Virus record (IMG/VR): IMGVR_UViG_3300026187_000075
Location: 1-27,835 of that record
Direction: 5' to 3' (one strand)
Source of the DNA: a virus
Taxonomy: Duplodnaviria > Caudoviricetes
DNA: 27,835 nucleotides
In this document: positions 1 through 20,938 of the stretch, piece by piece
Layout of the letters: each line of letters begins with the position of its first letter
How positions within the stretch are numbered: position 1 is the first letter of the stretch
Made by a program: the position numbers and the translations under genes
The notes under the pieces: generated by a model
What the model was told of the DNA's origin: nothing
Seen by the model: only the letters and a program-made list of their open reading frames with translations
Database searches by the model: none

Positions 1-3000
1 TAAAATCTGCTTCATATATATCAATAAAATTACCTTCATATGTTTCAGAGAAATTACCCTCATAAGCATTTTCATAGATCGCAGTGAATTGTGCAACGTA
101 TTCGGTTACATAGTTTCCGGTATATTCATCGGCAAAGTTACCGACATATTGACCTTCGAATGTCTCTTCGAATGTCCCAGTATATTGACCCTCAAATGTT
201 TCTATAAAATCTCCAGAGTAGTCAACAGAGAAGTTGCCTGAATAATTGTCTGTGAAATCACCCAGATATTGTCCTTCGAATGTTTCTACAAAGTCTCCCT
301 CATAAACTTCCTCGAAGTTACCGATATAGTCTTCGGTAAAGTTGCCTTCATATTGTCCTTCAAAGTTTTGTTCAAAGTCCCCACTGTAATCTACAGAGAA
401 ATTACCCGAATATGTTTGTTGGAAATTACCCTCATATTGTCCTTCAAATGTTTCTAGGAAATCACCCGAATAGTCTGTCGAGAAGTTACCAGAGTAATCT
501 GCTGTAAAGTTACCCGAATACTGTCCTTCAAACGTTTCTAGGAAATCACCAGAGTAGTCGACAGAGAAATTACCTGAATAATTCTCAAGGAAATCACCAG
601 AATACTGCCCTTGGAATGTCTCCAAGAAGTCACCAGAGTATTGTCCCTCAAACGTTTCTACGAAGTTGCCAGAGTATGGAACAGAGAAGTTACCACTGTA
701 CTGTTCCTGAATATACAAAGAGATGTAATCCGTACCATACAACGAAATGTAATCGGTCGAATAATCTTCGGTAAAGTTACCAGAGTAGTCTTCGGTAAAC
801 GTACCAGTATACTGACCTTCAAAGATTGTTTCGAAGGTGCCTGTATACTGACCTTGGAAGGCCTGTTCAAAATCACCACTGTATTCTTCGATAAAGTTTC
901 CGGTGTAATCTTCACTGAAGGTACCTGTGTATTGACCTTCGAAGATTGTTTCGAATGTTCCGGTGTACTGCCCTTGGAATGTCTCCTCAAAGTCCCCACT
1001 GTAATTCACCGAGAAATTACCCGAATATGGAGTAGAGAAGTTACCTGAATATTGACCCTCAAAGTTTTCTTCGAAGTTACCCGTATATTGCCCTTGGAAG
1101 GTTTCTAGGAAATCACCACTGTAATCCAGTGAGAAATCACCCGAGTATTGTTCTTGTGTATACGTTACACTGAAGTTACCACTATATTGTTCTTGAGTAT
1201 ATGTGACACTGAAGTCACCCGAATAATCCTCTTGAATATATGTCTCTTCAAAATCACCAGAATAAGTTTCCTCGAAATCTCCGGAATAGTTTACACTGAA
1301 ATTACCAGAGTAAGGATCAATAAAGTCACCGGAATATTGTCCTTCGAAGTTCTGAACAAAGTTACCACTATATTGACCTTGGAACGTTTCTACAAAGTCA
1401 CCCTCATATGGAGATGAGAAGTTTCCGCTGTACGCAACCGTGAAATCACCAATGTATTGACCTTCAAAGTTTTGTTCAAAGGTGCCTGTATATTGACCTT
1501 GGAACGTTTCTACAAAGTCACCCTCATATGTTACGAGGAAGTTGCCTTCATATGCAACGGTGAAATCACCCAGATATTGTCCTTGGAAATTTTGTTCGAA
1601 ATCGCCAGAGTAGTTTACACTAAAGTTACCAGAGTAAGGAACAATAAAGTCACCGGAATATTGCCCTTGGAATGTTGATACAAAGTCACCCGAATAGTCT
1701 GTCGAGAAGTTACCTGAATAATTCTCAAGGAAATCACCAGAATATTGCCCTTGGAATGTTTGTTCAAAATCACCCGAGTAGTTTGTCGAGAAGTTGCCAG
1801 AGTAATCTTCGACGAAGTTACCTGTATACTGGCCTTCAAATGCCTGAATAAAATCGCCGTCATAGGTTTGTACAAAGTTACCAGAGTAAGGAACTACGAA
1901 ATCACCTGTGTACTGACCTTGGAACGTTTGTAGGAAATCGCCCGAATAGTCTGTCGAGAAGTTACCAGAGTAATCTTCGACGAAGTTACCTGTATACTGG
2001 CCTTCAAATGCCTGAATAAAATCACCGGAGTAATTTAAACTAAAGTTTCCACTGTATGGAACGATGAAATCACCTGTGTATTGTCCTTGGAAAGTCTGTA
2101 AGAAATCACCAGAGTAATTCAGGGAGAAGTTACCAGAGTAATTCTCAAGGAAATCACCAGAATATTGCCCTTGGAAGTTGATTAAAAAATCACCAGAGTA
2201 ATTTAATGAGAAATTACCTGAATAATTCTCAAGGAAATCACCGGAATACTGACCTTCAAAGGTCTGTTCGAAATCACCAGAGTAATTCAGACTAAAGTTG
2301 CCCGAGTAAGGAACAACGAAATCTCCTGTGTATTGTCCTTGGAAAGTAGAGAGAAAATCACCCGAGTAATTTACACTAAAGTTACCTGAATAGTCTACGA
2401 CGAAATCGCCTGTGTACTGACCTTGGAACGTTTGTAGGAAATCACCAGAGTAATTCAGACTAAAGTTGCCCGAGTAAGGAACAGAGAAGTCACCAACGTA
2501 CTGGCCTTGGAAGTTGGTTAAAAAATCACCAGAGTAATTTAAACTGAAGTTTCCACTGTATGGAACGATGAAATCACCTGTGTACTGCCCTTGGAATGTC
2601 TGTACAAAATTTCCTAGGTATTGACCTTCGAAAGTCTGTAAGAAATCACCAGAGTAGTTAACAGAGAAATTACCAGAGTAAGGATCAATAAAGTCACCTG
2701 CGTATTGTCCTTCAAAATTCTGGATAAAATCACCAGAGTAGTTAACAGAGAAATTGCCCGAGTAAAACTCTATGAAATTACCTGTATACTGTCCTTCGAA
2801 ATTTTGGACAAAATTACCCGAGTAATTTACACTAAAATTACCTTCGTATGTTTGTTGCAAATATTGAACACTGAAGTTACCAGAGTAATCGACAGAGAAA
2901 TTACCTGAATAATCTGTAATAAAATTACCCGAATAAAATAAACTAAAGTTACCCGTATATTGCCCTTGGAAGTTGGTTAAAAAATCACCAGAGTAATTTT

Positions 3001-4320
3001 GAATAAAATCACCCGAGTAATTAGCTTGAACATAATTAGAATCAAATGTGCCTAGGTAATTTGTTTCAAACGTACCAGAATAATTTACACTGAAGTTACC
3101 CGAGTAATCTTCTTGAGTATAGAATGTTTCAAATGTACCTGTATATGTTTGTTCAAAAGTACCGAGGTAGTTTACACTGAAGTTACCAGAATAATTTTCC
3201 TGTGCATAATTGTCTTCGAATGTACCCGTGTAATTTAATTCAAACGTCCCGAGGTAATTCGTTTGGAAATCACCTGTGTAAGTTTCTTGTGCGTATGTGA
3301 CACTAAAGTTACCCACGTAGTTTGTATCAAAGGTTCCCAGATAGTTGGTTTCAAAATTACCTGTGTAAGTTTCTTGGGCGTAATTGGTTGCAAAATTCCC
3401 AGCATAGTTTGTATCAAAGGTTCCCAGATAGTTGGTTTCAAAATTACCTGTGTAAGTTTCTTGGGCGTAATTGGTTGCAAAATTCCCAGCATAGTTTGTT
3501 TCAAACGTTCCCAGATAATTGGTCTGGAAATTACCTGTGTAAGTTTCTTGGGCGTAGGTAACACTAAAGTTACCCGCATAGTTTGTTGCGAATGTACCCG
3601 TATAGTTTACACTAAAGTTACCTGTATAGTTTTCTTGAACATACAGAGAATCAAATGTGCCTAGGTAATTTGTTTCAAACGTTCCCAGATAGTTGGTTTC
3701 AAAATTACCCGTATAGTTTTCTTGAGTGTAAGTTAAAGCGAAATTACCTGCATAGGTTAAAACAAAATCTCCAGAATAAGTTTGTTCGAAATTACCGATA
3801 TAATTGTTTTGCACATAAGTGACAGCGAAATTACCGATATAGTTTGTATTGAACGTTCCCAAATAGTTTAAACTAAAGTTACCAGTATAATCTGCTTGTA
3901 CATAGTTTTGTAAGAAGTCATTACTGAACTGTTGAGTAAATTGTGATGTAAAATCTTGTTCAAAATTACCCGTGTAGTTTTCTTGAGTATACGCTTGAAC
4001 AAATGTTCCCGAGTATGGTTGTGCAAAATTGCCAACGTATGTGGTTTCAAAATTACCTGTGTAGTTTTCTTGAGTGTAAGTTACAGCGAAATTACCTGTA
4101 TAAGTTGCACTAAAGTTACCGACATAACCTTGTATAAAGTTACCAGTATAGTTCGATTCGTTATAAGTTGCCGTAAAATCACTTGAAAACTGTTGTAAAA
4201 AAGTTCCGGTAAAATTAGTTTCAAACGTTCCCAAATAGTTTTGTGTAAAGGTGTTGGAAAACTGTGTTTCAAAATTACCTGTGTAGTTTTCTTGAGTGTA
4301 AGTTACAGCGAAATTACCTA
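1..4320 (-). repeat. C-terminal (return) arm of [Y/F]xxx tetrapeptide repeats, 12-nt base period with 84/87-nt super-period
   Basis: Translates to YSGNF/YSGDF/FQGQY/YxQENY units. Super-period is 87 nt in 3019-4150 and mostly 84 nt in 148-2788. Confidence 0.95.
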
Positions 4321-7300
4321 AATATGATGCAGTGAAGTTACCAATGAAGTTACCTGTATATTGCGCTGTTACCGGACCTTGATAGGTTACAGTAGAATCT
4401 GTACTGAAATTACCTGTATATTGTGTACCATATGCTATGGTAAAGACAGAAGTAAAGAAACCAGTAAAGTAAGCTGGAGGAACATATCGTGCAATAGAAT
4501 AATAACCACCACCGGCACCATCAGAAGCGAAGAAAGTCCCTCTATAATAAGTGTATCCATCAGTACCAGTTTGTGGTGATGAAGCTCCCGGCGGCACAGA
4601 GGCGCTTACAAAGAAAACCTGCGAACTATCCCAAAGACCTACAGAGCCTTGTACGAAACCACTATCAAGCCAATGGTACACGTTTTGTGTGTAAAGATAT
4701 CCAGAAAAGTTGCCGGGGTAACCATACTGTTGACTAAAGTTACCCGTATAAAATAATGTCGGGCCCGACTGATACTGTTGTGTGAAATCTCCAATAAAGT
4801 TACCAGTGTACCCCTGTTGCGTATTTCGTTCGTAGACTTGTGTAAAAGTACTAGTAAAACTCGAAGAGAAACCCACTGAAAAATTACCAACGTACTGCCC
4901 TTGGAAAGTAGATAGGAAAGTACCCAAATAGTTCTGTGTAAAACTATTAGAAAACTGTGTCTCGAACGTTCCTAGATAATTCGTCTGGAAATTACCAGTA
5001 TAAAATAAACTGAAGTTACCAGTATAATTAGCTTGGAATGTTTGTAAGAAATCACCATCAAAGTTTTGGGTAAAACCAGCAGAAGAGAAATTCTGTACAA
5101 AGTTACCAACGTATTGTCCTTGGAAGTTGGTTTCAAAATTACCCACGTAAGGTTGAGTAAATTGACTTGTAAAATCCTGTTCGAAGTTACCCGTATATTG
5201 TCCTTGGAAGGTACCAAGGAAAGTACCAGAATAATCAATAGAGAAATTACCAGTATAAAATAAACTGAAGTTACCAGTATATTGCCCTTGGAAAGTACTT
5301 AAAAAATCAGCTGAAAAATTAGTTTCGAACGTTCCCGCATATGTTTGTTGAAAGTTACCTAGATACTGCCCTTGGAATGTCTGTACGAAAGTACCAACGT
5401 AATTTACACTGAAATTGCCTGAATAGTTTTGAACGAAATCACCCGTGTACTGCCCTTGGAAAGTAGATAGGAAAGTGCCAGTGAAGTTAGTCTCAAATGT
5501 TCCCAGATAGTTTGTTTCAAACGTACCTGTGTATTGCCCTTGGAAATTGAGAGTGAAATCAGATGAAAATTGAGTTTCGAACGTTCCCGTATATGTTTCA
5601 ACAAAGTCACCAGAGTACTGACCCTCGAAGTTAGATAAAAACGTACCAGTGAAATTGGTCTCGAATGTTCCTGTGTACGTTTGAACGAAATCACCCAAAT
5701 ACTGCCCTTGGAAGTCCGATAAGAAAGTGCCAGTGAAGTTCGTTTCAAATGTTCCTGTATACGTTTGAACGAAATCACCCAAATACTGCCCTTGGAAGTC
5801 CGATAAGAAAGTGCCAGTGAAGTTCGTTTCAAATGTTCCTGTATATGTTTGTTGAAAGTTACCTTGATATTGACCTTCGAAATTTGATAAGAAAGTGCCA
5901 GTGAAGTTAGTCTCAAATGTTCCCAGATAGTTTGTTTCAAACGTACCAACATATTGCCCTTGGAAGTTTTGAACAAAGTCACCCGAATAATTTGTTTCGA
6001 AATCACCAGTGTAGCTTGTCTCAAATGTACCTAGGTACTGCCCTTGGAACGCTTGTACAAAGTCTCCACTATAATCTGTGTCAAACGAACCAGTGTAGTT
6101 CGTTTCAAACGTACCGACATATTGACCTTCGAAGTTTACACTGAAATTGCCTGAATAATTTACACTGAAGTTACCAGAATAATCTTCCTGCACATAGTTT
6201 TGTAGGAAATCATTTGAGAAATCCTGTTCAAAGTCACCAGAGTAATTTACAGAAAAATCACCAGAATAGTTAATCGAAACGGACTCTCCCATCCATCCAA
6301 ACAATGGTTCTTCGTCGTCAGTTGCATCATTGACAGTGACAAGGTAGACATCAGTACCTTCGAATTTCCATAGAGTATTTGAATTGAAGTTTGCCGCAGA
6401 TCCTGAATCTAATGCAATATCACCCGCAACACCAAAACCAGATGTTCCTTCACGGAAAAATACAGAAGGACTGGTCGCATTACCAGACGCATAGAAAGTT
6501 TCATGAAGAACCCAAGAAGATCCGTTCCAACTAGAAACCTGAACAGAACCACTATTGGGTACAACCAAATGGAAGTCTGACAGAACACCGGCGTGCATGT
6601 AGTGGGACGATAGATATTCCGTACCAACACCTTGACACGCATCACCACCCGCTCCATCCGCAATCTCTACAGCAACACAGGGGTTCGCATCAGCAACCCT
6701 GTATGTCGCATTTGTTGAAGGAGCCGCATTGTTTACAGATGATTCAACTCCATTTCGTCGACGATAAACCACGGTAGATGCCGGAGTCAACATCATATAG
6801 TCCGCACCAGACTGGATTGCACTCGCAACCATTTCTACGTCTGACTCGAAGAACACCCATGCGTTCAATGTTGAGGTAGAATAAGTCGCAACCGTTCCTG
6901 CGGTCAAACTTACTGTCGTGGTTGCTGTTCCACTAATACCACCCACAACATTGTCGTAGACAGTAACTGTACCGTTTTCCTTCGCATAGAAGTAGACGGT
7001 CATAGGTGCGTTACGGTTTGCGTAATTACCGAACAAAGTTCCTCTCATATTCCAAGGGATTGGTACGTGGTTAGCACCCCAGTCTTGAATATGGAAAGGT
7101 TTTCCGTTGGTAAATAGAATGTCACCTTGAGAAACAGAAATGGTTCCGGTTTGAGACGCAGCCGTTGAACCTACAACCGTTGTGACAGTGCCACCACTGT
7201 CTTTGTAAATAATGGTACCCGATTCGTAAATAGAATAATTTACGGTGGCGTTGGTCATTATGATGTATTCACCCAGACCACTATTTCGACGATAGTCTAT

Positions 7301-10300
7301 ACCAATATAGTCAGAAACAAAATCACCCGAATAAGTTTGTACAAAATCACCCGAGTATTGTTCTTGTACATAGTTTTGTAGGAAATCATTTGAAAAATCT
7401 TGTTCAAAGTCACCCGAATAATTTAGACTGAAGTTACCAGAATATTGTGACTGTGCGTAATTACTAACAAAATTACCATCATAAGTTTGTTCAAAATCGC
7501 CACTGTAATTTACGCTGAAGTTACCAGAATATTGTTCTTGGACGTAGTTCTGTACAAAATTACCCGTGTAGTTTTCTTGAGTATAAGTTTCGACAAAGTT
7601 ACCCGAGTAAGTTTGTTCAAAGTCACCGCTGTAGTTTACGCTGAAGTTACCACTGTAGTTTTCTTGAACATATGTTTCAACGAAATTACCTTCGTATGTT
7701 TGTTCAAAGTCGCCAGAGTAATTTACACTAAAGTTACCAGAGTAATCGTCCTGTACATAATTCTGGACGAAATTACCAGCATATGTTTCTTCGAAGTCAC
7801 CAGAGTAATTTACGCTGAAGTTACCAGAGTAATTGTCTTGGATATAAGTCGCAACAAAATTACCATCGTATGTTTGTTCAAAGTCACCACTATAGTTTAC
7901 GCTGAAATTACCAGAATATTGTTCTTGAGTATATGTGACACTAAAATTACCCGAGTATGTCTCTTCGAAGTCACCCGAATAATTTACACTAAAGTTACCA
8001 CTGTAGTTTTCTTGGATATAAGTTACACTGAAATTACCAGAGTATGTCTCTTCGAAATCACCAGAGTAATTTACACTAAAGTTACCAGAGTAATCATCCT
8101 GTACATAATTCTGAACAAAGTTACCAGAGTACGTCTCTTCAAAATCACCTGAATAGTTTACACTGAAATTACCGCTGTATGAATCTTGAACGTAGTTTTG
8201 TTCAAAATCACCAGAATATGTTTCTTCGAAGTCGCCCGAGTAATTTACACTAAAGTTACCACTGTAGTTCTCTTGAATATAATTCTGAACAAAGTTACCC
8301 GAGTATGTTTCCTCGAAGTCACCGGAATATGGTACAGAGAAATTACCACTGTAAGAATCTTGTACGTAGTTTTGTTCAAAATCACCCGAATAGGTTTCTT
8401 CGAAGTCACCCGAATAATTTAGACTGAAGTTACCAGAATAATCTTCTTGAGTGTATGTGACACTAAAGTTACCAGAATATGTTTCTTCGAAGTCACCAGA
8501 GTAATTTACACTAAAGTTACCACTGTAGTTTTCTTGAATGTATGTGGCACTAAAGTTACCGTCATAATTCTGTTCAAAGTCACCCGAATAATTTAGACTG
8601 AAGTTACCACTGTAGTTTTCTTGAACATAATTCTGTACGAAGTTGCCTTCATATGCAGTTAAAAAATCGCCCGAATATGGTTCAATGAAATTACCACTGT
8701 AGTTGTCTTGGGCATAATTCGTCTCAAATGTTCCGAGGTACTGTTCTTGCACATAGGTTGCAATGAAGTTGCCCTCATAGGTTTGTTCGAAGTCACCTTC
8801 ATATACAGTAACAAAATTACCACTATAATCTTCTTGAGTGTATGTTACAGAAAAATCACCCGAGTATTGTTCCTGCACATAATTTTCTACAAAGTTACCC
8901 GAGTATGTTTCCTCGAAGTCACCGGAATAGTCTATGCTAAAATTACCAGAATAATCTGTTAAGAAATTACCAGAGTATTGCCCTTGGAAGTTGGTTAGGA
9001 AATCTCCTGAATATTGTCCTTCAAACGTTTCTAGGAAATCACCCGAATATTGACCTTCGAAGGTCTGAACGAAATTACCCGAATAATTTACACTGAAATT
9101 ACCAGAGTAATCTTCTTGGGTGTACGTAGTCTCAAAGGTTCCTGAATATTGTTCCTGAACATACGTAGTTTCAAAATCACCAGAGTAATTTTCAATGAAG
9201 TCACCAGAATAATCCAGTGTGAAATTACCAGAATAATCTTCTTGAGTATAGACTGTCTCAAACGTACCAAGATATTGTTCCTGTACATAATTCAGTTCGA
9301 AGTCGCCCGAATAGGTCTCTTCAAAATCACCAGAATATGGAATACTGAAATTACCTGAATAATCTTCTTGAGTATAGACTGTCTCAAAGGTTCCTGAATA
9401 TTGATCTTGAAGATAGTTGGTCTCAAAATCACCCGAATAATTTACAGAGAAATCACCCGAGTAATTAATAGAGAAGTTGCCTTCATACCCTTCAGTGAAA
9501 TTACCTTCGTATTGACCTTCGAAAGTCTGTAAGAAATCACCCTCGTAGGTTACAACGAAATCGCCCGTATATTGTTCTTGAGTATAGGTGACACTGAAAT
9601 TACCCGAATAGTCGTTCTGAATATATGTGACACTAAAGTTACCAGAATATGTTTCTTCGAAGTCACCAGAGTAATTTGTTGAGAAGTTTCCTGAATATTG
9701 TTCCTGAACATATAAGGTGACATAATCTGTCGCATATGTCTCTTCGAAATCACCCGAATAGTTTACACTGAAATTGCCCGAGTATTGTTCCTGAACATAA
9801 GTCGAGACGTAATCTGTCAAATACCCTTCAATAAAATCTCCACTGTAGTCCAGTGAAAAATTACCTGAATATTGTTCTTGGACATACAACGAAACATAAT
9901 CAGTCGCATATGTCTCTTCGAAGTCACCAGAATACGAAACGGTAAAGTTACCCGAATATTGTTCCTGAACATACAATTCTTCGAAAACGGCACCATACGT
10001 CTCTTCGAAGTCACCCGAATAGTCTACACTAAAGTTACCAGAGTAATTGTCTTGGACATACGTAGTTTCGAAGGTACCCGTATACTGATCTTGAATATAC
10101 AATGATTCGTATTCTGATACATATGTTTCGACATAATCAGTGAGGTAACCCGAAACGTAATCAGAAATATATTGATCTCTCAAGTAGAAAGAAATATAAT
10201 CTGTACTGTAAGGAATAATATCAGTGTTCAAATACTGTACACTGAATATACCCGTGTATTCTTCTTGTATATAATTGGTAACGTATTCGGTCAGATAGTT

Positions 10301-11482
10301 ATCAACGAAGTTTCCAATATAGTCTGTTTCGTAGCTACCCGAATAGTTTTCAGTTACATAAGCGGATTCATATACAGATTCAAATTGTGCTCCAGAGTAT
10401 GCCGCTTCATAGGGTTCAGGTAAGCCAGGACCTGTATACGTTTCTTCAGCAACATAATCTGTTGCATATGGTTCAGCAACATATGGTGCAATAAAATCAC
10501 CAGAGTAAGATTGGGAATACTGCGCTTCGAAAATCTGTGTAAATGTACTTTCGTATTCTGAACTGTAAAGAGTAGAATAATTTCTAAAATAATCTCCGAT
10601 ATATTCTTCGGAGAAAACCTGTGAGTAGTCTCCTTCATACACATCCGAATACGTACCTTCGTAAGTTGCACCCAAATAAGTTTCACTATAAAACTCTTGA
10701 CCCGTATACCCCGGCTCGGTAACAAACGATAATCGAGTGTCAAGTGCGGTACCACGTGCTTCCCATGTGCCGGGGTCTGTTGGTGGACCTTGCAATGATG
10801 ATCGCAACTGGTAAGTACCAATACCAGAATTCATTGCGGTTACCTTCGCACGTTCACCCAATGTGTACTCGATCTCCGCATCGGTCATTTCTTTCAGACC
10901 AGCGAAGATCGCATTCTGACGATTGATTGCGATCGGTTTTACATTGTCAGGTTCCGTACCCGTTTGACGAATGTAGATGTTGTAGTTTGTTGCAGACCCA
11001 TCCGCACGAGTGTCAGTGAAAACGTTTGGTATGAATACAGTCCAGTCTGCACTGGGTGCGGTTTCACCCAATCGGAAACTGCCAGGAAGTTCATTTGCGG
11101 TTATTTTTTCGAGTAGTCTTTGAATGAGAGAATCGAGTTCCGAATCACTCATCTCTTTTAGACCCGCACCATTCCAGAAAACAGGGTTCTTTGTCAATGG
11201 TCCTTTTTCGGAAGGACCTACATTCTGATAAAGATCCGTTTCCGTGAAAGAATAGGTAGGTGGAATGTATGCATCAGGTGTGACACCAATGCCCTGATCA
11301 TAGAAAGTATCGGTATAAGTTCCGACAAGATTACCGCCCGCAGAAATAGTGAGTGCCGATGGGTCACTCTGACTCATTCTTGAAAGATGAATCCCTGCAC
11401 GGTATGCGAGATAATCTTCTTCGTTTAAGATTAACTCTTTTAACGCACCAGAACCAAGACTTTTTAACGGACGGTATGACAT
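1..11482 (-). CDS. Giant (>=3827 aa, 3'-truncated) aromatic-tetrapeptide repeat protein; putative virion fibre
   Basis: ATG at 11482-11480 gives MSYRPLKSLGSGALKEL... The same frame reads ...YEGNFSETYEGNFIDIYEADF at the left edge. No in-frame stop in the large stretches I translated, and the ORF track lists no closed ORF in this frame across 1-11482, as expected if it runs off the edge. TATAAATA lies 27 nt upstream. Located at the end of the baseplate cluster. Fibre function is inferred. Confidence 0.92.
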   Translation of the reverse strand, partial: MSYRPLKSLGSGALKELILNEEDYLAYRAGIHLSRMSQSDPSALTISAGGNLVGTYTDTFYDQGIGVTPDAYIPPTYSFTETDLYQNVGPSEKGPLTKNPVFWNGAGLKEMSDSELDSLIQRLLEKITANELPGSFRLGETAPSADWTVFIPNVFTDTRADGSATNYNIYIRQTGTEPDNVKPIAINRQNAIFAGLKEMTDAEIEYTLGERAKVTAMNSGIGTYQLRSSLQGPPTDPGTWEARGTALDTRLSFVTEPGYTGQEFYSETYLGATYEGTYSDVYEGDYSQVFSEEYIGDYFRNYSTLYSSEYESTFTQIFEAQYSQSYSGDFIAPYVAEPYATDYVAEETYTGPGLPEPYEAAYSGAQFESVYESAYVTENYSGSYETDYIGNFVDNYLTEYVTNYIQEEYTGIFSVQYLNTDIIPYSTDYISFYLRDQYISDYVSGYLTDYVETYVSEYESLYIQDQYTGTFETTYVQDNYSGNFSVDYSGDFEETYGAVFEELYVQEQYSGNFTVSYSGDFEETYATDYVSLYVQEQYSGNFSLDYSGDFIEGYLTDYVSTYVQEQYSGNFSVNYSGDFEETYATDYVTLYVQEQYSGNFSTNYSGDFEETYSGNFSVTYIQNDYSGNFSVTYTQEQYTGDFVVTYEGDFLQTFEGQYEGNFTEGYEGNFSINYSGDFSVNYSGDFETNYLQDQYSGTFETVYTQEDYSGNFSIPYSGDFEETYSGDFELNYVQEQYLGTFETVYTQEDYSGNFTLDYSGDFIENYSGDFETTYVQEQYSGTFETTYTQEDYSGNFSVNYSGNFVQTFEGQYSGDFLETFEGQYSGDFLTNFQGQYSGNFLTDYSGNFSIDYSGDFEETYSGNFVENYVQEQYSGDFSVTYTQEDYSGNFVTVYEGDFEQTYEGNFIATYVQEQYLGTFETNYAQDNYSGNFIEPYSGDFLTAYEGNFVQNYVQENYSGNFSLNYSGDFEQNYDGNFSATYIQENYSGNFSVNYSGDFEETYSGNFSVTYTQEDYSGNFSLNYSGDFEETYSGDFEQNYVQDSYSGNFSVPYSGDFEETYSGNFVQNYIQENYSGNFSVNYSGDFEETYSGDFEQNYVQDSYSGNFSVNYSGDFEETYSGNFVQNYVQDDYSGNFSVNYSGDFEETYSGNFSVTYIQENYSGNFSVNYSGDFEETYSGNFSVTYTQEQYSGNFSVNYSGDFEQTYDGNFVATYIQDNYSGNFSVNYSGDFEETYAGNFVQNYVQDDYSGNFSVNYSGDFEQTYEGNFVETYVQENYSGNFSVNYSGDFEQTYSGNFVETYTQENYTGNFVQNYVQEQYSGNFSVNYSGDFEQTYDGNFVSNYAQSQYSGNFSLNYSGDFEQDFSNDFLQNYVQEQYSGDFVQTYSGDFVSDYIGIDYRRNSGLGEYIIMTNATVNYSIYESGTIIYKDSGGTVTTVVGSTAASQTGTISVSQGDILFTNGKPFHIQDWGANHVPIPWNMRGTLFGNYANRNAPMTVYFYAKENGTVTVYDNVVGGISGTATTTVSLTAGTVATYSTSTLNAWVFFESDVEMVASAIQSGADYMMLTPASTVVYRRRNGVESSVNNAAPSTNATYRVADANPCVAVEIADGAGGDACQGVGTEYLSSHYMHAGVLSDFHLVVPNSGSVQVSSWNGSSWVLHETFYASGNATSPSVFFREGTSGFGVAGDIALDSGSAANFNSNTLWKFEGTDVYLVTVNDATDDEEPLFGWMGESVSINYSGDFSVNYSGDFEQDFSNDFLQNYVQEDYSGNFSVNYSGNFSVNFEGQYVGTFETNYTGSFDTDYSGDFVQAFQGQYLGTFETSYTGDFETNYSGDFVQNFQGQYVGTFETNYLGTFETNFTGTFLSNFEGQYQGNFQQTYTGTFETNFTGTFLSDFQGQYLGDFVQTYTGTFETNFTGTFLSDFQGQYLGDFVQTYTGTFETNFTGTFLSNFEGQYSGDFVETYTGTFETQFSSDFTLNFQGQYTGTFETNYLGTFETNFTGTFLSTFQGQYTGDFVQNYSGNFSVNYVGTFVQTFQGQYLGNFQQTYAGTFETNFSADFLSTFQGQYTGNFSLFYTGNFSIDYSGTFLGTFQGQYTGNFEQDFTSQFTQPYVGNFETNFQGQYVGNFVQNFSSAGFTQNFDGDFLQTFQANYTGNFSLFYTGNFQTNYLGTFETQFSNSFTQNYLGTFLSTFQGQYVGNFSVGFSSSFTSTFTQVYERNTQQGYTGNFIGDFTQQYQSGPTLFYTGNFSQQYGYPGNFSGYLYTQNVYHWLDSGFVQGSVGLWDSSQVFFVSASVPPGASSPQTGTDGYTYYRGTFFASDGAGGGYYSIARYVPPAYFTGFFTSVFTIAYGTQYTGNFSTDSTVTYQGPVTAQYTGNFIGNFTASYLGNFAVTYTQENYTGNFETQFSNTFTQNYLGTFETNFTGTFLQQFSSDFTATYNESNYTGNFIQGYVGNFSATYTGNFAVTYTQENYTGNFETTYVGNFAQPYSGTFVQAYTQENYTGNFEQDFTSQFTQQFSNDFLQNYVQADYTGNFSLNYLGTFNTNYIGNFAVTYVQNNYIGNFEQTYSGDFVLTYAGNFALTYTQENYTGNFETNYLGTFETNYLGTFDSLYVQENYTGNFSVNYTGTFATNYAGNFSVTYAQETYTGNFQTNYLGTFETNYAGNFATNYAQETYTGNFETNYLGTFDTNYAGNFATNYAQETYTGNFETNYLGTFDTNYVGNFSVTYAQETYTGDFQTNYLGTFELNYTGTFEDNYAQENYSGNFSVNYLGTFEQTYTGTFETFYTQEDYSGNFSVNYSGTFETNYLGTFDSNYVQANYSGDFIQNYSGDFLTNFQGQYTGNFSLFYSGNFITDYSGNFSVDYSGNFSVQYLQQTYEGNFSVNYSGNFVQNFEGQYTGNFIEFYSGNFSVNYSGDFIQNFEGQYAGDFIDPYSGNFSVNYSGDFLQTFEGQYLGNFVQTFQGQYTGDFIVPYSGNFSLNYSGDFLTNFQGQYVGDFSVPYSGNFSLNYSGDFLQTFQGQYTGDFVVDYSGNFSVNYSGDFLSTFQGQYTGDFVVPYSGNFSLNYSGDFEQTFEGQYSGDFLENYSGNFSLNYSGDFLINFQGQYSGDFLENYSGNFSLNYSGDFLQTFQGQYTGDFIVPYSGNFSLNYSGDFIQAFEGQYTGNFVEDYSGNFSTDYSGDFLQTFQGQYTGDFVVPYSGNFVQTYDGDFIQAFEGQYTGNFVEDYSGNFSTNYSGDFEQTFQGQYSGDFLENYSGNFSTDYSGDFVSTFQGQYSGDFIVPYSGNFSVNYSGDFEQNFQGQYLGDFTVAYEGNFLVTYEGDFVETFQGQYTGTFEQNFEGQYIGDFTVAYSGNFSSPYEGDFVETFQGQYSGNFVQNFEGQYSGDFIDPYSGNFSVNYSGDFEETYSGDFEETYIQEDYSGDFSVTYTQEQYSGNFSVTYTQEQYSGDFSLDYSGDFLETFQGQYTGNFEENFEGQYSGNFSTPYSGNFSVNYSGDFEETFQGQYTGTFETIFEGQYTGTFSEDYTGNFIEEYSGDFEQAFQGQYTGTFETIFEGQYTGTFTEDYSGNFTEDYSTDYISLYGTDYISLYIQEQYSGNFSVPYSGNFVETFEGQYSGDFLETFQGQYSGDFLENYSGNFSVDYSGDFLETFEGQYSGNFTADYSGNFSTDYSGDFLETFEGQYEGNFQQTYSGNFSVDYSGDFEQNFEGQYEGNFTEDYIGNFEEVYEGDFVETFEGQYLGDFTDNYSGNFSVDYSGDFIETFEGQYTGTFEETFEGQYVGNFADEYTGNYVTEYVAQFTAIYENAYEGNFSETYEGNFIDIYEADF
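3318..3499. repeat. Exact tandem duplication, 87 bp x 2 (+8 bp)
   Basis: 3318-3404 is identical to 3405-3491 by direct comparison. Confidence 0.95.
4760..6270 (-). repeat. Inner outgoing arm of tetrapeptide repeats, 84-nt (28-aa) super-period
   Basis: F[Q/E]GQY units at 6121, 6037, 5953, 5869, 5785, 5701, 5617, 5533, 5449, 5365, 5281, 5197, 5113, exactly 84 nt apart. Confidence 0.95.
5676..5845. repeat. Exact tandem duplication, 84 bp x 2
   Basis: 5676-5759 is identical to 5760-5843 by direct comparison. Confidence 0.95.
7300..10710 (-). repeat. Outer outgoing arm of tetrapeptide repeats, mostly 87-nt (29-aa) super-period, becoming irregular above ~10100
   Basis: YxQExY units at 7357, 7444, 7531, 7570, 7657, 7744 ... 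10045, 10084. Consensus approximately YxQENYSGNFSVNYSGDFEETYSGNFxxN. Confidence 0.95.
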
Positions 11483-11507: not shown

Positions 11508-11720
11508 CTATTTATAAGATTTTAAAGTGGTCAACACCGTAGATTGCAATTCCTTTATTTGGATTTCTAAATCGTCGATTCGTTTTAAGAGTTGTTCTTT
11601 CTCTTTGCGTTCTTCTTGTTTGATCTTTTTACGAATTTTAGCTTGTTCAATCTGGCTCCTGTTAGGATTATAGTAGACACCAGATTGAACAAATTCGTTT
11701 AATTTACTATCTATACTCAT
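11508..11720 (-). CDS. Small coiled-coil hypothetical protein (70 aa)
   Basis: ATGA overlap with the upstream gene. Charged heptad-like C-half (LLKRIDDLEIQIKELQSTV). Small proteins of this type follow the DUF4815 gene in T4-like cyanophages. Confidence 0.8.
   Translation of the reverse strand: MSIDSKLNEFVQSGVYYNPNRSQIEQAKIRKKIKQEERKEKEQLLKRIDDLEIQIKELQSTVLTTLKSYK
11509..11516 (-). promoter_or_regulatory. T4-type late promoter TATAAATA upstream of the giant gene
   Basis: Plus strand tatttata at 11509-11516 is the exact gp55 late consensus, 27 nt above the ATG at 11482. It overlaps the last codons of the 70-aa ORF. Confidence 0.8.
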
Positions 11721-14700
11721 ACGGACAAGAAGTTATATGAGAAGGCAGATAACATGGGTGGTCTATCTTTCGAAGGACAAGCAATTTTGAATTGTGACTG
11801 TTGGAACGGATCCATTCTACCACCTTCACCTCCAACCAAAAACCTTGCAGTGTAGAACTCACCACTGTTGTCTCTCGGAATATTTTCCTTGATGGGATAT
11901 GGATTCCACGGTTTGTCTTTCAGATTTTCATCCGCTGCGCCAGTACGATAATAGAATTGTATATCAGATCCATCCGGAAGGTTGACATCAAATCTCGCAT
12001 CGACACCGACTGCGGTTTCACGTAGTACCGTAGGTGTAGTAATGTGAGTGAATCCAGTCTTACCACCATATGGTTGGGTTTCTTCTACAGGATACACATA
12101 TGGAGTCACCTCGGGATCATCCACGCAATAACCAACCAACACCAAAGACGCACGTTGTAAATCTATCACAGGTGAAACATAATCAGATGCAGTCTTCAAG
12201 TCCAGTTTGATAATCGCAGACGATGACAATCCTTGTGCGGTCTCGGTTGACTTACTGTAAATAGCACGTGGTAAATCAAAATCAACGTTTTGATTCAAAC
12301 TGATTTTTCGATACTGTTCTGGTTGTTGATAACGTGTCGCAGTACCCGAAATGAATCTACCCGTGGTGAATTTAGCAGAAGCATCAATCGAAGTGTTTTT
12401 CGGAATCGACACATCTATGGTTGGATTCACCACCGAGAATACAGTATTACCTTGAGACAAGATTCTGTTACCACCCCCAAATCCACTTGAGGTTGCAGTT
12501 CCTGCGGTCGTGACTGTGTAACCATAAAGATCCGCAGAATCAACTGTGTGCGTAGTATTCAACTGACTTGACAATATTCCGTTAGCATCAGAACATGAAT
12601 CAAGTTGTGCAATATCGCCAGGTTGTAAACCGTGACACATATGTTGCACATACACTTTACTTGAACCGTCGTTTGTACGGATACTGTTACCCTTCAATAA
12701 TTTAACAGGTAAATCAGCATTCTTCAATACAAGACTTCCACCACCGATATCAAACGATGCACGATGCAATGTGAACATGATGTCTCGGTCTTTACTACCA
12801 ATCCAAGTAGCTGCGTTTTGAGGCAAGAACAATGTTCCGTTGGTAGGTTGGTTTGTTACATAACGACTGGTAGAACCATATACAGATTGACCTACAGTAG
12901 AACTGAACAGTTCGTATTCAGTAGACTGTGTGGAAACCACAACCGCATACGTAGTGTTGGGTTGCAGATATATCGGTTCATCAAACTCGAACGAAGTGGG
13001 ACGAGACTGAATCACAGACAACTGTGGATCTGTACCAATCGCAACAACTTCACTCGGATTCAAGTAAACATGCGAATCAGGAACGATAGTTGTCTGTGAA
13101 GGTTTACCACCAACTACAGGACGAATATGAATCGAGATTGGTATGTTACCACTGTCTTTCTTTCTGAAGAACAGATCCACCTTGGTCAAAGTCAAACCGA
13201 ACTGGTTGGTCACTTCGAAAGTTTGTGCAAGAGGATTCTGCGGTAACGACAATACGTTGGTATTTGTACCACCGAATACGTTTTGGTTAACGTCAATGTA
13301 ATCAGACAGAACCTGTGACATTTCACCAGTCGCATCAAGTCCCTGTAATGCAGCTGCAGACAGAGGTGAAGTCAATGGTCCAAACTTACCTGCAAGTTTG
13401 GGATCTAAAATACCAACATTCGTTTCGGTGATATTGTCGAGTGCGGTTTGCAATTCTTTCGGTGTGAAAGGCAAACGAGTCTGTATGTAACTCCAAGGAG
13501 CAACCCACTGCCATCCACGTAGAGACAAGAAACCTTGCCATGACTTATCGACCTGACCAATTGCGGAATAGTATGCAAAACATTTACTTCCAGCATCTGA
13601 CCAATCGTTTCGATCTATGTCAAGTAGTTTGAATTCGCGAATACCTGAACGGAAACGAACATACTTGGTTTTTATCTTCTTACCTTTTACGTAACGAACA
13701 ATCTCGTATTCAGGAGCGATATTGGGTATAAAGAATGATCCGATGATCTCACCATTTTCGTCACTGGTCAGTTCACTGTTTCCATCGGGGTGTGATGAAA
13801 TATCTGAAGATGTATATTTGTTACCAATGTCATCAGTACGATCAGCCCAACGAACAAACGTAGATTCTTCACGACACCAATCTGACACATTCTGTCCATC
13901 AAAGAACGGAGTGAACTTGGTGTTGGGTGTTAATCCTTTCGCTTGGAAGTACACTTTACGTGAACGCATCCAAGGGATCAAAGCAAGATCAATGTACTTT
14001 CCGTTGGTCAACTTACGGATACTTTCGGATGAAAGAACACGATTGACATGACGACCCGTCGAAGTTTCGGTGACAATGAAAGAAGAGTTAGAAAGGAACT
14101 TATCTAATTTCTTAAGTTGTTTTCTCTTCAACACTGCACGAGGATTCGTACCTTTAACCGATGCAATTGCACCAGCAAGGTGAAGATCAGAAACATCTCG
14201 CCCCGCCCAGTTCCACATCCAGTTGTTCCAAAGCAACGCTTGGTCTTGAGATATCTTGTTCGAACCAGTTAATGCATACTCCGCCTTTTCAAATGCGTCT
14301 TTCCATTCGTCCGAAGAAGGAGACAGTTTCAACGTTCCTACGTTGTCTGTCAATCCAAATGGGTTTACGTTGACAAATTCGGATGCGAGGTCATGTGACT
14401 TCCAAGTGACTTCCGAATAATCAAGGTAAATGTTGTCACCTTTCTTCCTAATGTTTTGAGAAAGAGAATTGTCAACAATGAGTCGAATATTGTTCTCGTC
14501 CGCCATAGGACGAATCAACCGAGATTCAGGATCAAGTGATGCACGATAATCTGGGTTTGCAACTTCACTACCAGTTTGATCATCCACATTATCAACCACA
14601 ATACCAATCGAAGGACGAACATCGCCTTGACTATCCAACAACGTATTGATCTTTTGTTCAAGTTCCAAGAACTTACTTGTGGTATATTCTTCTAGTCGAT

Positions 14701-17080
14701 CAAGTTTTGCTTCCAGACCAGCGATGTCTTTCATCGTATAACCCTTGTGTTCGATCGGGGTTATCTGCACATCGTTTTCGTCAAGGGTGTTTGCACCCAT
14801 AACGATTTTGTAAAGTTCTAATGTATTATCTGGGGTTGCTTTAAACTGTGGGTTCTCGTCTTGTTGACCCATCAACAATTGTATAGTTCCGTCTTCGTCA
14901 ATCAACAGTTTATCTGCACGGGGAAGATAATAGGTTATATCCGCAGTGACATTTGTTGCATTGCGAGGTAGGAAATGGATGTTCGAAAACGTTCCTGCAT
15001 TTTTATCAGGACGAAAATCGAGATAGTTAATCAGTTTGACTTCTTCACCAGTTTGAATTACGTGTGTCGGAATGTCAGAGTATCCAACCGCATTGTTGTA
15101 TGAACTGGGTGCATAGAAGTCACCAGTTGCACCACGAGTGAAATGTCGATACTTAACATACAACGAAGTGGGAGCAGAATCTCCTTGTTGCAGAATCAAC
15201 CGACTGTCTGCGTAGAAGTTGTCACGTTGACCATCATCTAATATGAATCTTGGTAATAAATTGTTTCCATTGGCATCGTCAGCACGTACTGAATCTATGG
15301 AATAAACATCAGGTACACCAAAATCATAGTAGACATACGAGTTTCCGTTGACAGGGTCTGTAGCAGTTGCTTTGGTTAACGTGGCAGTTGTCGCTGACGA
15401 AAGTGTCTTGGATTTGACCGTTCCTGTTTTCTGAACATAATAGAGAATGTCGTATGCAGTAACGTTACTCAAACCGCTAATGACACCCGTTGAGATATTA
15501 ACAGTAGGTGAAACAACACCAGAAGGTCCAACCACGACCCATGACGAACCGTCTGTGAACGATTCAGAACCCACCAATACGCTACTGATATCAATCTCAC
15601 CTGAACTGTTAGAGTTGTCAGAAGTGAATTTTTGCACTGTCAGGACAATATCGGAGAAGGCCTTCGCACGGGGGCGAGAAGTCGGCATTAACAGATCATT
15701 ATCAATTGTTTGATACAATCGTGCATTAGTACCTTGTAAGTCTAACACGAATCTATCTGAAGTACCAGTACCGATCGTTCTCGCAGTCGCAAGAGATTTA
15801 CCATCATTGATTTGTACATCAAAAACATAGACTCTTAAGTTGGGTCCATCTTTTTCTACTGCACGAATACGACAGGTCCCGATAACATTTCCGGAAGGGT
15901 CAGTTGCACTAGAACTAATATTGACCGTTGAGTAATCTAATGAAGGTAATCCCCTTGCAGAAGCAGACGCTGCAATGAAATAATTACCATAGACAATCGG
16001 TACCACATCGTTTTCTACTAGGTCCGTTTCTTGAGGACGGGGTACGGTCAATCTAATCGGAGATGGATTTTCTGCTCGATAACCATTGACATATGCCGTG
16101 CCTTTTGATATAATGAGCTCTAGGGATGAGTCGTTTGAAACAACATCCTCAAAGTGAATAGTAAAAGGTTCAACAATATAATCGCCTGATTCTTCATCAG
16201 TACGTAATGCCATCAATTCTTCTATCTGATTATATGCATCATTCTCTTGTACAGTTTCTACGATAGTAGAGTTTTCTACGTTCGCAAGAAAAACAAAGGT
16301 ATCATCCGAAGTAACCCGATCTTTGGTCGTAAGTTCTAATCGAATTCTATATCGGTCTGCGCCAGGTGATGCACGATTAATTATACCACCCGAATTGTCA
16401 TAAAGTGCAGAAGTATCGTTTACAGTGACTACTTCTTGTATGACTTTAAATCCAACAACCGCATCGACTGCATTGGTGTTTGCACTTAAAATTATGTGTT
16501 GGTCATTCGAATGAACAAATCGTCCTAATACGAAAAAGGTACCTTCTCCAACATCAAATCTAACACCCTTACCCGTAGAGTTTGGAGTGTGTGTAACTAA
16601 CTCGTAACCGTTCCCTGATTGATCGAACAGTGTTTCATTATCACCGAACGTATTTGAAACAGAAGATACGTCAGCTTGGTTGTTATTAATATATTGGACG
16701 TAAAGAGTGTCCAATGTAAACATGTCATTGTCGATTGGTTTTACTTCTAATACTCTCGCAGTCAAACCAGTAGAAGGATTTCGAAAGACTGTACCCAATG
16801 GAATGTCTGCAAAATCACCACCCGAGTTTGTTGATGCGATCTGAACGTAATCGTAATCGTCGTTACATGCCATTGCAGGTGAAGTAATAGCCGCACCGTC
16901 TTTAAAGACGTTGTGTCCCATTCGACTCAACTCGGCATATACGAGACTCTGAAGTTGTGTTAACTCCCTTGCCTGCAAAGCGCGACCATTATTGAACAAT
17001 ATCTGGTGATAATTGTCGTTCTTATTATAGTCGTCATCATAAGAACTTAAAAGGGTATTTGAAGTAAAAGTAGTCGCCAT
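11717..17080 (-). CDS. Large virion structural protein, DUF4815 / VrlC-like (1787 aa)
   Basis: Recognisable motifs YDDDY..YHQILF..GRALQARELTQLQS, ASPGADRYRI, RTDEESGDY, YYLPRADKL, YTMKDI..LE, LSPSSDEW, NPLAQTF, VSPVIDL. Sits directly after gp8 as in T4-like cyanophages. Confidence 0.85.
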   Translation of the reverse strand: MATTFTSNTLLSSYDDDYNKNDNYHQILFNNGRALQARELTQLQSLVYAELSRMGHNVFKDGAAITSPAMACNDDYDYVQIASTNSGGDFADIPLGTVFRNPSTGLTARVLEVKPIDNDMFTLDTLYVQYINNNQADVSSVSNTFGDNETLFDQSGNGYELVTHTPNSTGKGVRFDVGEGTFFVLGRFVHSNDQHIILSANTNAVDAVVGFKVIQEVVTVNDTSALYDNSGGIINRASPGADRYRIRLELTTKDRVTSDDTFVFLANVENSTIVETVQENDAYNQIEELMALRTDEESGDYIVEPFTIHFEDVVSNDSSLELIISKGTAYVNGYRAENPSPIRLTVPRPQETDLVENDVVPIVYGNYFIAASASARGLPSLDYSTVNISSSATDPSGNVIGTCRIRAVEKDGPNLRVYVFDVQINDGKSLATARTIGTGTSDRFVLDLQGTNARLYQTIDNDLLMPTSRPRAKAFSDIVLTVQKFTSDNSNSSGEIDISSVLVGSESFTDGSSWVVVGPSGVVSPTVNISTGVISGLSNVTAYDILYYVQKTGTVKSKTLSSATTATLTKATATDPVNGNSYVYYDFGVPDVYSIDSVRADDANGNNLLPRFILDDGQRDNFYADSRLILQQGDSAPTSLYVKYRHFTRGATGDFYAPSSYNNAVGYSDIPTHVIQTGEEVKLINYLDFRPDKNAGTFSNIHFLPRNATNVTADITYYLPRADKLLIDEDGTIQLLMGQQDENPQFKATPDNTLELYKIVMGANTLDENDVQITPIEHKGYTMKDIAGLEAKLDRLEEYTTSKFLELEQKINTLLDSQGDVRPSIGIVVDNVDDQTGSEVANPDYRASLDPESRLIRPMADENNIRLIVDNSLSQNIRKKGDNIYLDYSEVTWKSHDLASEFVNVNPFGLTDNVGTLKLSPSSDEWKDAFEKAEYALTGSNKISQDQALLWNNWMWNWAGRDVSDLHLAGAIASVKGTNPRAVLKRKQLKKLDKFLSNSSFIVTETSTGRHVNRVLSSESIRKLTNGKYIDLALIPWMRSRKVYFQAKGLTPNTKFTPFFDGQNVSDWCREESTFVRWADRTDDIGNKYTSSDISSHPDGNSELTSDENGEIIGSFFIPNIAPEYEIVRYVKGKKIKTKYVRFRSGIREFKLLDIDRNDWSDAGSKCFAYYSAIGQVDKSWQGFLSLRGWQWVAPWSYIQTRLPFTPKELQTALDNITETNVGILDPKLAGKFGPLTSPLSAAALQGLDATGEMSQVLSDYIDVNQNVFGGTNTNVLSLPQNPLAQTFEVTNQFGLTLTKVDLFFRKKDSGNIPISIHIRPVVGGKPSQTTIVPDSHVYLNPSEVVAIGTDPQLSVIQSRPTSFEFDEPIYLQPNTTYAVVVSTQSTEYELFSSTVGQSVYGSTSRYVTNQPTNGTLFLPQNAATWIGSKDRDIMFTLHRASFDIGGGSLVLKNADLPVKLLKGNSIRTNDGSSKVYVQHMCHGLQPGDIAQLDSCSDANGILSSQLNTTHTVDSADLYGYTVTTAGTATSSGFGGGNRILSQGNTVFSVVNPTIDVSIPKNTSIDASAKFTTGRFISGTATRYQQPEQYRKISLNQNVDFDLPRAIYSKSTETAQGLSSSAIIKLDLKTASDYVSPVIDLQRASLVLVGYCVDDPEVTPYVYPVEETQPYGGKTGFTHITTPTVLRETAVGVDARFDVNLPDGSDIQFYYRTGAADENLKDKPWNPYPIKENIPRDNSGEFYTARFLVGGEGGRMDPFQQSQFKIACPSKDRPPMLSAFSYNFLSV

Positions 17081-17083
17081 TTT

Positions 17084-18415: not shown

Positions 18416-18442
18416 ACTATTTCTCTTAAATTACTATTTGTT

Positions 18443-18450
18443 TATTTATA
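18443..18450 (-). promoter_or_regulatory. T4-type late promoter TATAAATA upstream of gp8
   Basis: Exact consensus overlapping the gp6 stop codon, 28 nt above the gp8 ATG. Confidence 0.75.
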
Positions 18451-20245: not shown

Positions 20246-20261
20246 TTATGTTCTCCAGCGT

Positions 20262-20909: not shown

Positions 20910-20927
20910 TGTAAAACCTTTTCTTTT

Positions 20928-20935: not shown

Positions 20936-20938
20936 TCA

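What the first reader, a model, noticed from the sequence alone, without database searches (positions are those of the whole stretch)
148..10096. Mirror-symmetric repeat register: a giant single-chain out-and-back hairpin fibre
Seen: two marker units punctuate the tetrapeptide run, A = YxQEx-Y (5 residues) and B = F[Q/E]GQ-Y (4 residues). Reading outward from ~4590, each B on one arm faces an A on the other: 4894/4285, 5026/4150 (variant units), then 13 pairs 5113/4063 to 6121/3019 (84 vs 87 nt steps), then 6181/2959. Beyond the lateral domain there are 38 more, from 7357/2788 to 10084/148. Irregularities are mirrored too: short steps (39 vs 36 nt) at 7531-7570/2620-2584, 8701-8740/1492-1456 and 10045-10084/184-148. 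Local swaps match exactly: three B at 8977, 9013, 9049 face three A at 1225, 1186, 1147, and one B at 9511 faces one A at 700. This is neither a DNA inverted repeat nor a peptide palindrome; it is complementary register. Inference: the arms pair antiparallel residue for residue, with the extra A residue as a beta-bulge opposite the Gly of B and aromatics packing over cross-strand Gly. The known precedent is the T4 gp37 needle, three out-and-back hairpins forming a six-stranded needle, but that is far shorter and metal-cored. About 1450 residues per arm would approach 0.5 micrometre if fully extended at ~3.3 A per residue. I know of no description of this architecture.
Basis: partly seen in the sequence, partly recalled or inferred. 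Interest (0 to 1): 0.97.

Follow-up and report, generated by a model that had tools for sequence, protein, structure and literature searches.

The report
Giant fold-back zipper phage fibre
A roughly 4,000-residue protein of an uncultured T4-like phage has two long halves whose repeat markers match one for one when read in mirror order, so the chain likely folds back on itself into one thin virus fibre, predicted to reach up to about half a micrometre.

Summary
Observation confirmed: all 54 A/B marker pairs sit at the stated coordinates; no shuffle of 20,000 matched more than 26 of the 38 outer pairs. The ORF lies in a T4-like baseplate cluster and runs off the window. Two other contigs complete it (about 4,015 aa) and supply a 55th, predicted pair. 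It belongs to a large unannotated family (302 to about 4,000 aa). The repeat is inserted into the third of three homologous base modules, and the last residues close that module. Relatives keep both arms matched in length; the youngest duplications in the two arms lie at mirror positions. AlphaFold gives a long hairpin for a 370-aa relative but failed on the window's own tip fragment (pLDDT 37). One near-identical contig lacks a unit on one arm only. Antiparallel pairing is about 90% likely; an extended single-chain ribbon about 55%. Oligomer state and true length are untested. It works like the T4 gp37 needle but is not a member (no His, about 33 times longer arms). This scan noted the same design at least eight times on other DNA; I found no paper on it.

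The parts
2..11482 (-). Giant fibre gene, 3827 aa inside the window, open at the window edge; about 4,015 aa in full
   Evidence: end read in L105 and L106
10718..11482 (-). Base domain (residues 1-255): three homologous modules; the third is closed by the protein's last strand, which lies outside the window
   Evidence: family alignment A1, hhalign 95-99% between modules, closing strand match 73%, AlphaFold of relative
10100..10717 (-). Degenerate base-proximal N arm (256-461); its A at residue 404 faces a B just outside the window
7298..10099 (-). Outer N arm (462-1395): 34 A and 4 B markers
6269..7297 (-). Lateral globular domain (1396-1738) inserted at one token of the N arm; likely adhesion module, IgGFc-binding-like fold as a lead
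   Evidence: 190 homologues, LamG partners in 17 of 30, Atlas TM 0.58 on a homologue
4895..6268 (-). Inner N arm (1739-2196): 15 B and 1 A markers
4301..4894 (-). Tip: short stems around a small non-repeat domain (about residues 2255-2338, 4469-4720); centre of symmetry
2888..4300 (-). Inner C arm (2395-2865): 15 A and 1 B markers
149..2887 (-). Outer C arm (2866-3778): 34 B and 4 A paired markers, plus one unpaired A opposite the lateral domain
2..148 (-). Start of the degenerate base-proximal C arm, cut by the window edge
11508..27826 (-). Context: T4-like baseplate cluster (DUF4815 11717-17080, gp8-like 17084-18415, gp6 18446-20245, gp25 20262-20909, gp5 pieces and amidase 21670-25938, hub-like 25935-27296, wedge-like 27296-27826)
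   Evidence: Pfam and PHROG scans

Best explanation
This gene of a T4-like phage tail cluster encodes a roughly 4,015-residue chain whose two repeat arms match in mirror order, and the chain likely folds back on itself into one extended two-stranded antiparallel beta ribbon that likely serves as a very long virion fibre. Shown: the mirror register, the three-module base, the conserved closing strand at the C terminus, and matched arm lengths in relatives. Inferred: the hairpin of base module 3 is extended by about 1,650 residues each way; aromatic residues and Gly fall on one face, rings lie over or beside cross-strand Gly; each five-residue A unit adds a bulge opposite a Gly-rich B unit about every 28 residues and fixes the register like teeth of a zipper; selection keeps insertions only when the other arm matches. 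The tip domain and the lateral domain likely bind the host surface. Because the base is a single-chain pseudo-trimer, one chain per fibre is my guess. Odds: mirror pairing of the arms about 0.92; this extended single-chain form about 0.55. Upper length about 0.5-0.55 micrometre at 3.0-3.4 A per residue (textbook value, own knowledge).
For: 54 of 54 markers complementary, shuffles max 26 of 38. A 55th pair found outside the window at the predicted spacing, 58 versus 56 residues. 87 of 104 locus proteins end in the closing strand; the other 17 are cut by contig ends (duplicates included). That strand matches module 2's return strand. In 86 of 120 short homologues scored, C arm minus N arm is exactly +4 in 55 and within -4 to +9 in 73, over N arms of 12-136 residues. 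L004: 21 of 25 N-arm markers face the complementary marker with a different marker string. L008, L012, L015: base-anchored ungapped register is best of 81 offsets, 2 bad pairs of 202, 214, 137 (close relatives). A 16-residue indel is present on both arms against L004/L007. Longest exact DNA repeats of the inner arms lie at mirror positions, 1880-1935 and 2662-2721; unit distances correlate in mirror order (rho 0.54, 0.53) and not in parallel order. AlphaFold of L022: strands 247-298 and 311-368 round one turn; its weak Foldseek hits are long-hairpin proteins. For a single chain: three homologous base modules, beta-prism-like fold match, and Lys/Arg/Glu/Gln at the third token position. Tail-cluster context.
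Against: AlphaFold on the window's own tip-centred fragment gave mean pLDDT 37.5 with short strands and turns, not a hairpin (4 sequences). Arm pLDDT in the short relative is only 51-73. L106 lacks one 29-residue C-arm unit while its N arm is intact; the site is a 95-nt exact tandem repeat, so collapse is possible, and run contigs did not decide it. A generic pairing rule beat all 60 rotations in only 17 of 28 long proteins, though the split point was chosen in its favour; the window itself was not among the 17 (12 more dropped for lack of anchors). Synonymous distances correlate weakly on the inner arms (rho 0.23, p 0.046) and not on the outer arms. In the gp37 needle, Gly-Phe packing is between chains of a trimer (PMC6957217, passages). 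No evidence that the protein is in the virion beyond gene position.
Confidence: 0.55

Rival explanations
1. The arms pair in the same mirror register, but several chains bundle: three hairpins make a six-stranded needle with an aromatic core as in gp37, more make a tube, or the arms swap between chains.
For: Most phage fibres are trimers (own knowledge). In gp37 stem Gly921 packs on Phe970 of another subunit (PMC6957217, passages). A quarter of arm residues are Phe or Tyr on one face. Weak Foldseek hits include barrel-forming hairpins such as the phi29 collar (E 0.08). An earlier scan note says the halves can be separate genes (not tested here).
Against: The base is already three modules in one chain. 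The aromatic face carries Glu, Gln, Thr here and Lys or Arg in relatives (168 Lys at that position in L020), poor for a dry core. The arms hold 380 Asp/Glu and no Lys, Arg, His or Cys in 2772 residues. Forked relatives are harder to bundle.
Confidence: 0.25
2. The paired arms coil into a compact form, a two-start antiparallel beta helix or two side-by-side solenoids matched rung for rung, so the fibre is several times shorter (about 0.1 micrometre).
For: The low-confidence model of the window fragment shows repeating short strands and turns, best in residues 1-74 (pLDDT 55-74). Coiling would bury the rings. The 28/29-residue period could be a helical period.
Against: Relatives with arms of 12-20 residues cannot form a coil. 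The confident family model shows long continuous strands. Marker spacing varies among 3, 5, 7, 9 and 11 tokens, and most relatives have no such period. Charged residues would point inward.
Confidence: 0.14
3. The arms do not pair; the symmetry is a by-product of DNA duplication or conversion, and each arm folds alone or stays disordered.
For: Some blocks are shared between arms as direct copies, one at mirror positions (811-889 and 3358-3436, 73% nt). One contig has unequal arms.
Against: No inverted repeat. Direct copying cannot give A opposite B in reversed order over 54 markers. Equal arm lengths over a hundredfold range. Amino-acid-changing sites, not synonymous ones, carry the outer-arm correlation.
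Confidence: 0.03
4. The fold-back ribbon is real but is not a host-binding fibre of the virion (for example a ruler, tether or non-virion scaffold).
For: No annotated family, no virion data; the only match among 50,697 annotated phage records is a hypothetical protein.
Against: The gene follows baseplate wedge genes and sits among fibre genes. Length varies freely from 302 to about 4,000 aa at the same locus. Inserted domains resemble adhesion modules.
Confidence: 0.03

Closest known systems
Needle (D10-D11) of the T4 long tail fibre tip gp37 (PMC6957217 passages; PMC7291167 one passage)
   Same: Nested insertion: stem inserted in a base domain, tip inserted in the stem; out-and-back antiparallel strands; Gly packing on aromatic residues; phage fibre role (inferred here).
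   Different: gp37 stem is 50 residues per arm against about 1,650; it is a trimer with seven His-bound irons, while these arms have no His; no sequence match; no tetrapeptide code, forks or lateral domains are described there.
MABP-type beta-prism domains (3tow; perforin-2 P2 domain 6sb1; C-terminal domains of 2qp2 and 8b6v)
   Same: The modelled base aligns at Z 5.4-6.7, rmsd 3.7-5.0 over 115-122 residues, from residue 41 to 370, so the closing strand is part of the match. Three-fold pseudo-symmetry. Perforin-2 P2 also carries an inserted hairpin (recalled).
   Different: Z under 8 may be only a common arrangement; 7-13% identity; each module here adds a helix; no lipid binding shown.
Long beta-hairpins of pore and tube proteins (aerolysin, lysenin, phi29 lower collar)
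   Same: Long out-and-back hairpin; weak Foldseek rows, E 0.025-0.09.
   Different: Not significant, TM about 0.1; those hairpins are short by comparison and assemble into wide barrels; no homology implied.
Out-and-back alpha-helical arms (SMC, Rad50, chemoreceptors; recalled)
   Same: One chain folds back to make a long rod with both ends at the base.
   Different: Coiled coils of about 50 nm or less; here a beta ribbon, up to ten times longer, with an explicit pairing code.
Tyr-Gly mortise/tenon (aromatic rescue) motif of beta-barrels (10.1101/2020.10.22.346965, passages)
   Same: An aromatic ring over a cross-strand Gly, with bulges, defines strand register.
   Different: There a few motifs per barrel; here the motif would repeat hundreds of times along two strands.

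Membership tests
T4 gp37 needle | Stem inserted in a base domain, tip inserted in the stem | tested here: met
   Closing strand at the C terminus
T4 gp37 needle | His-bound iron core | tested here: not met
   0 His and 0 Cys in 2772 arm residues
T4 gp37 needle | Sequence homology to gp37 or its collar domain | tested here: not met
   No Pfam, PHROG or NCBIfam family for base or tip; family profile finds no PDB chain below E 0.05
T4 gp37 needle | Homotrimer forming a six-stranded needle | not tested
MABP-type beta-prism | Three homologous modules in one chain | tested here: met
   hhalign 95.5, 98.4, 99.0% between modules
MABP-type beta-prism | Structural match to solved members | tested here: inconclusive
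   Z 6.0-6.7, rmsd 3.7-4.0, 115-122 aligned
MABP-type beta-prism | Binding to acidic lipids | not testable with these tools
   none
Parallel beta-helix or solenoid fibre | Repeat number free of any distant partner | tested here: not met
   Arm lengths and markers coupled
Parallel beta-helix or solenoid fibre | Short strands and turns at a fixed coil length | tested here: inconclusive
   Seen only in a pLDDT 37.5 model, not in the confident family model
IgGFc_binding PF17517 (lateral domain) | Profile or fold match | tested here: inconclusive
   No Pfam hit; Atlas model of a 47% identical homologue gives TM 0.58 over 257 residues
DNA inverted repeat or peptide palindrome | Reverse-complement DNA similarity between arms | tested here: not met
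   Best minus-strand self hit E 0.39

The most novel reading that the evidence does not exclude
A single polypeptide zips onto itself over about 1,650 residues each way into a half-micrometre, metal-free, two-stranded beta ribbon rooted in a single-chain pseudo-trimeric base. The pairing code behaves like an RNA stem: length is tuned by mirrored duplications, side domains bud from one strand, relatives fork into two tips, and the phage's own glycosyltransferase-like and oxygenase-like neighbours coat the Tyr-rich ribbon.
Probability: 0.4. Interest if true: 0.95.

Novelty: categorically new. Interest (0 to 1): 0.86.

Why it matters
Known long phage fibres are built from three parallel chains; fold-back beta stems are known only at about 50 residues per arm. 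A chain that pairs with itself over 1,650 residues would be a new way to build a fibre and, as far as I know, by far the longest beta-hairpin. It offers a readable pairing code with hundreds of natural examples from 12 to over 1,600 residues per arm, which makes strand-register rules, long-range folding and coupled repeat evolution directly testable. Short natural members (about 300 aa) are easy to express. It would also give a role to a widespread unannotated gene of T4-like phages and a tunable scaffold for protein design.

Tried and rejected
AlphaFold on the window's tip-centred fragment (residues 2088-2506, 4 sequences) gave pLDDT 37.5; not searched further. The complex-prediction tool (three copies of a 302-aa relative) was not available, and the fold search against predicted viral structures never ran, so oligomer state and BFVD relatives are open. 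Foldseek against PDB gave nothing at E 0.001 or better; gp37 was not among the listed rows of either fold search, which does not exclude kinship. PDB sequence searches for the family profile, lateral domain and third accessory gene found nothing useful. A PHROG hit of the whole protein to gp5 (phrog_430) falls on the repeat and was rejected as compositional. The Atlas feature search for the lateral domain scored under 0.9. The generic aromatic/Gly rule is a weak test for periodic arms. Run contigs break at the exact repeats and did not settle the L106 deletion. Earlier scan notes by sequence: none. Literature searches that found no description: (listings only; subscription journals are not covered). 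Rejected: assembly artefact, DNA inverted repeat, the lateral domain as the true turn (its flanks put A opposite A and the short step is unmatched; strings).
Full report
Observation. The finding lies in one minus-strand ORF, 11482 to 2, 3827 codons, open at the window edge. Cut at each Tyr or Phe it is a run of four-residue tokens with 5-residue A units and Gly-bearing B units. Reading outward from the tip, the two arms line up token for token with a single offset at the lateral domain. For the 38 irregular outer pairs, 20,000 block shuffles, each allowed its best of 81 offsets, gave mean 13.1 and maximum 26; parallel order gave at best 18. The 13 evenly spaced inner pairs prove little alone. 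Gly tokens face non-Gly tokens in 262 of 279 other pairs. There is no DNA inverted repeat (best E 0.39) and the longest exact repeat is 95 nt. Contig L001 aligns without gaps over 2715 residues, and pieces of the stretch stand in 4 of 4 runs laid. The feature is real.

Context. The upstream genes are a T4-like baseplate cluster: DUF4815, gp8-like, gp6, gp25, gp5 pieces, an amidase. Base and tip match no Pfam, PHROG or NCBIfam family; the lateral domain has only one 30-residue PHROG hit at E 0.003. Two other contigs carry the end of the gene: 188 more residues, about 4,015 aa in all, ending in a conserved strand and a stop. They gave an out-of-window test: the A at residue 404 lies 58 residues (14 tokens) beyond the last paired A, and the next B lies 56 residues beyond the last paired B. 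Each arm is then about 1,650 residues.

The family. Among 50,697 annotated phage records only C48C1 matches, as a 3,347-aa hypothetical protein. Complete members run from 302 to 3,756 aa. Of 104 locus proteins, 87 end in the same closing strand and the other 17 are cut by contig ends (the set holds duplicates). The base is three homologous modules (hhalign 95.5, 98.4, 99.0%). The closing strand matches the return strand of module 2 (73%, controls under 2%). So the whole repeat region is an insertion in the hairpin of module 3, and the chain must come back to its start, or to a neighbour's.

Coupling of the arms. Of 120 short homologues 86 could be scored (34 dropped: 3 without anchors, 21 without a tip motif, 10 with several). 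C arm minus N arm is exactly +4 in 55 and within -4 to +9 in 73, over N arms of 12-136 residues. By eye, 7 of the 13 outliers are mis-picked tips and 6 have two tips. In L004, with a different marker string, 21 of 25 N-arm markers face the complementary marker. In L008, L012 and L015 (close relatives of 1135, 1183 and 875 aa) the ungapped register anchored at the base is the best of 81 offsets, with 2 rule-breaking pairs of 202, 214 and 137. Against L004 and L007 the window protein has 16 extra residues on each arm near the tip. Within the gene, the longest exact DNA repeats of the inner arms, residues 1880-1935 and 2662-2721, are mirror partners, and unit-to-unit distances correlate in mirror order (rho 0.54 and 0.53, p under 0.001 in 5,000 permutations) but not in parallel order.

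Results against. A generic pairing rule beat the mean of 60 rotations in 28 of 28 long proteins but all rotations in only 17, and parallel order in 25; the split point was chosen in its favour, and 12 proteins were dropped. Synonymous distances correlate weakly on the inner arms and not on the outer arms. L106 lacks one 29-residue C-arm unit with the N arm intact. The site is a 95-nt exact tandem repeat, so it may be an assembly collapse or a true unmatched variant; run contigs did not decide.

Structure. AlphaFold on the 370-aa L022 with 114 sequences gave mean pLDDT 86.7: a confident base and long strands 247-298 and 311-368 round one turn, arm pLDDT 51-73. I saw secondary structure, not contacts. 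Foldseek gave only weak rows, mostly long-hairpin proteins. The wide search matched the base, closing strand included, to the MABP domain 3tow and to 2qp2, 8b6v and perforin-2 P2 at Z 5.4-6.7, below the level that proves kinship; that these are beta-prisms is recalled, with PMC10344926 seen as a search listing only. AlphaFold on the window's own tip fragment failed: pLDDT 37.5, short strands and turns. The oligomer state is untested.

Mechanism. In a beta strand token positions 1 and 3 face the same side. Position 1 is Phe or Tyr, position 3 is Gly in about half the tokens, else Gln, Thr, Val or Glu. Tyr over cross-strand Gly, with bulges, is known to define strand register in beta-barrels (10.1101/2020.10.22.346965, passages). 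I infer an extended two-stranded ribbon in which rings shield the Gly grooves and periodic bulges lock the register. One chain per fibre is favoured by the pseudo-trimeric base and by Lys and Arg on the aromatic face of relatives, but a bundle remains a serious rival. The arms are very acidic: 380 Asp/Glu, no Lys, Arg, His or Cys in 2772 residues. At 3.0-3.4 A per residue the upper length is 0.5-0.55 micrometre; coiling would shorten it. The lateral domain has 190 homologues, 17 of 30 scanned fused to LamG lectin domains, and a homologue's model resembles IgGFc-binding domains (TM 0.58); adhesion is a lead.

Accessory genes. Three genes of about 150, 245 and 220 aa follow the fibre gene in most loci inspected and, by position and look, in L105 and L106. 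The second hits nucleotide-sugar transferase families in 8 of 30 members (best E 3e-7) and glycogenin weakly; L106's copy has no hit. The third has a His/His/Arg pattern that I read from memory as 2-oxoglutarate oxygenase-like; no library supports it. Modification of the fibre is a speculation.

Comparison. The T4 gp37 needle has the same nested layout, a stem of 50 residues per arm inserted in D10, but is a trimer with seven His-bound irons (PMC6957217, passages; six-stranded, PMC7291167, one passage). This protein works like it and is not a member. Eight paper searches found no description (listings only, open-licence library). Eight earlier notes of this scan describe the same design in other genomes; they are unchecked AI notes, came after my own reading, and are not counted as support.

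Verdict. Real, unusually clean, and part of a widespread undescribed fibre design. Mirror pairing about 0.92; extended single-chain ribbon about 0.55. Interest 0.86; architecture categorically new, though the role, a phage fibre, is a known one.

Noticed in passing
P0087, P0091, P0109, P0068, P0054, P0026, P0031, P0032: Short relatives with two tip motifs: a stem that forks into two short hairpins, like an RNA multiloop.
   Followed up: partly
L106:5650-7505 and most family loci, just past the window's left edge: Three conserved genes follow the fibre gene: unknown, GT-A glycosyltransferase-like (glycogenin-like, weak), and a His/His/Arg protein that looks like a 2-oxoglutarate oxygenase (recalled motif, no library hit).
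   Followed up: partly
window 3410-3500 versus L106: L106 lacks one 29-residue C-arm unit at a 95-nt exact tandem repeat while its N arm is intact: collapse or unmatched natural variant.
   Followed up: partly
window 7320-7445 and 6145-6270: The lateral domain is flanked by a direct duplication (residues 1347-1387 and 1739-1779, 79% over 126 nt), as if inserted with a target duplication.
   Followed up: no
window 8815-9052 and 1175-1411: Residues 811-889 and 3358-3436 are direct copies (73% nt) lying at mirror positions: a B...A cassette that pairs with its own copy.
   Followed up: no
window 149-10099: 148 of 265 Asn in the arms stand in N-x-S/T triplets; no control was run, and the token pattern alone may explain it.
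   Followed up: no
L024:14983-25026 (phage C48C1): The 3,347-aa homologue carries several side domains on short lateral hairpins and one exact internal duplication that may be an assembly error.
   Followed up: no
window 20939-25938: gp5 appears in pieces: OB fold plus tail lysozyme (25045-25938), a 642-aa protein with a C-terminal amidase, a gp5 C-terminal beta-helix protein, and a 244-aa gene with no family hit.
   Followed up: no
L002, L004, L018, P0122, P0123, P0125: Several relatives carry an extra domain inserted in the hairpin of base module 1.
   Followed up: no
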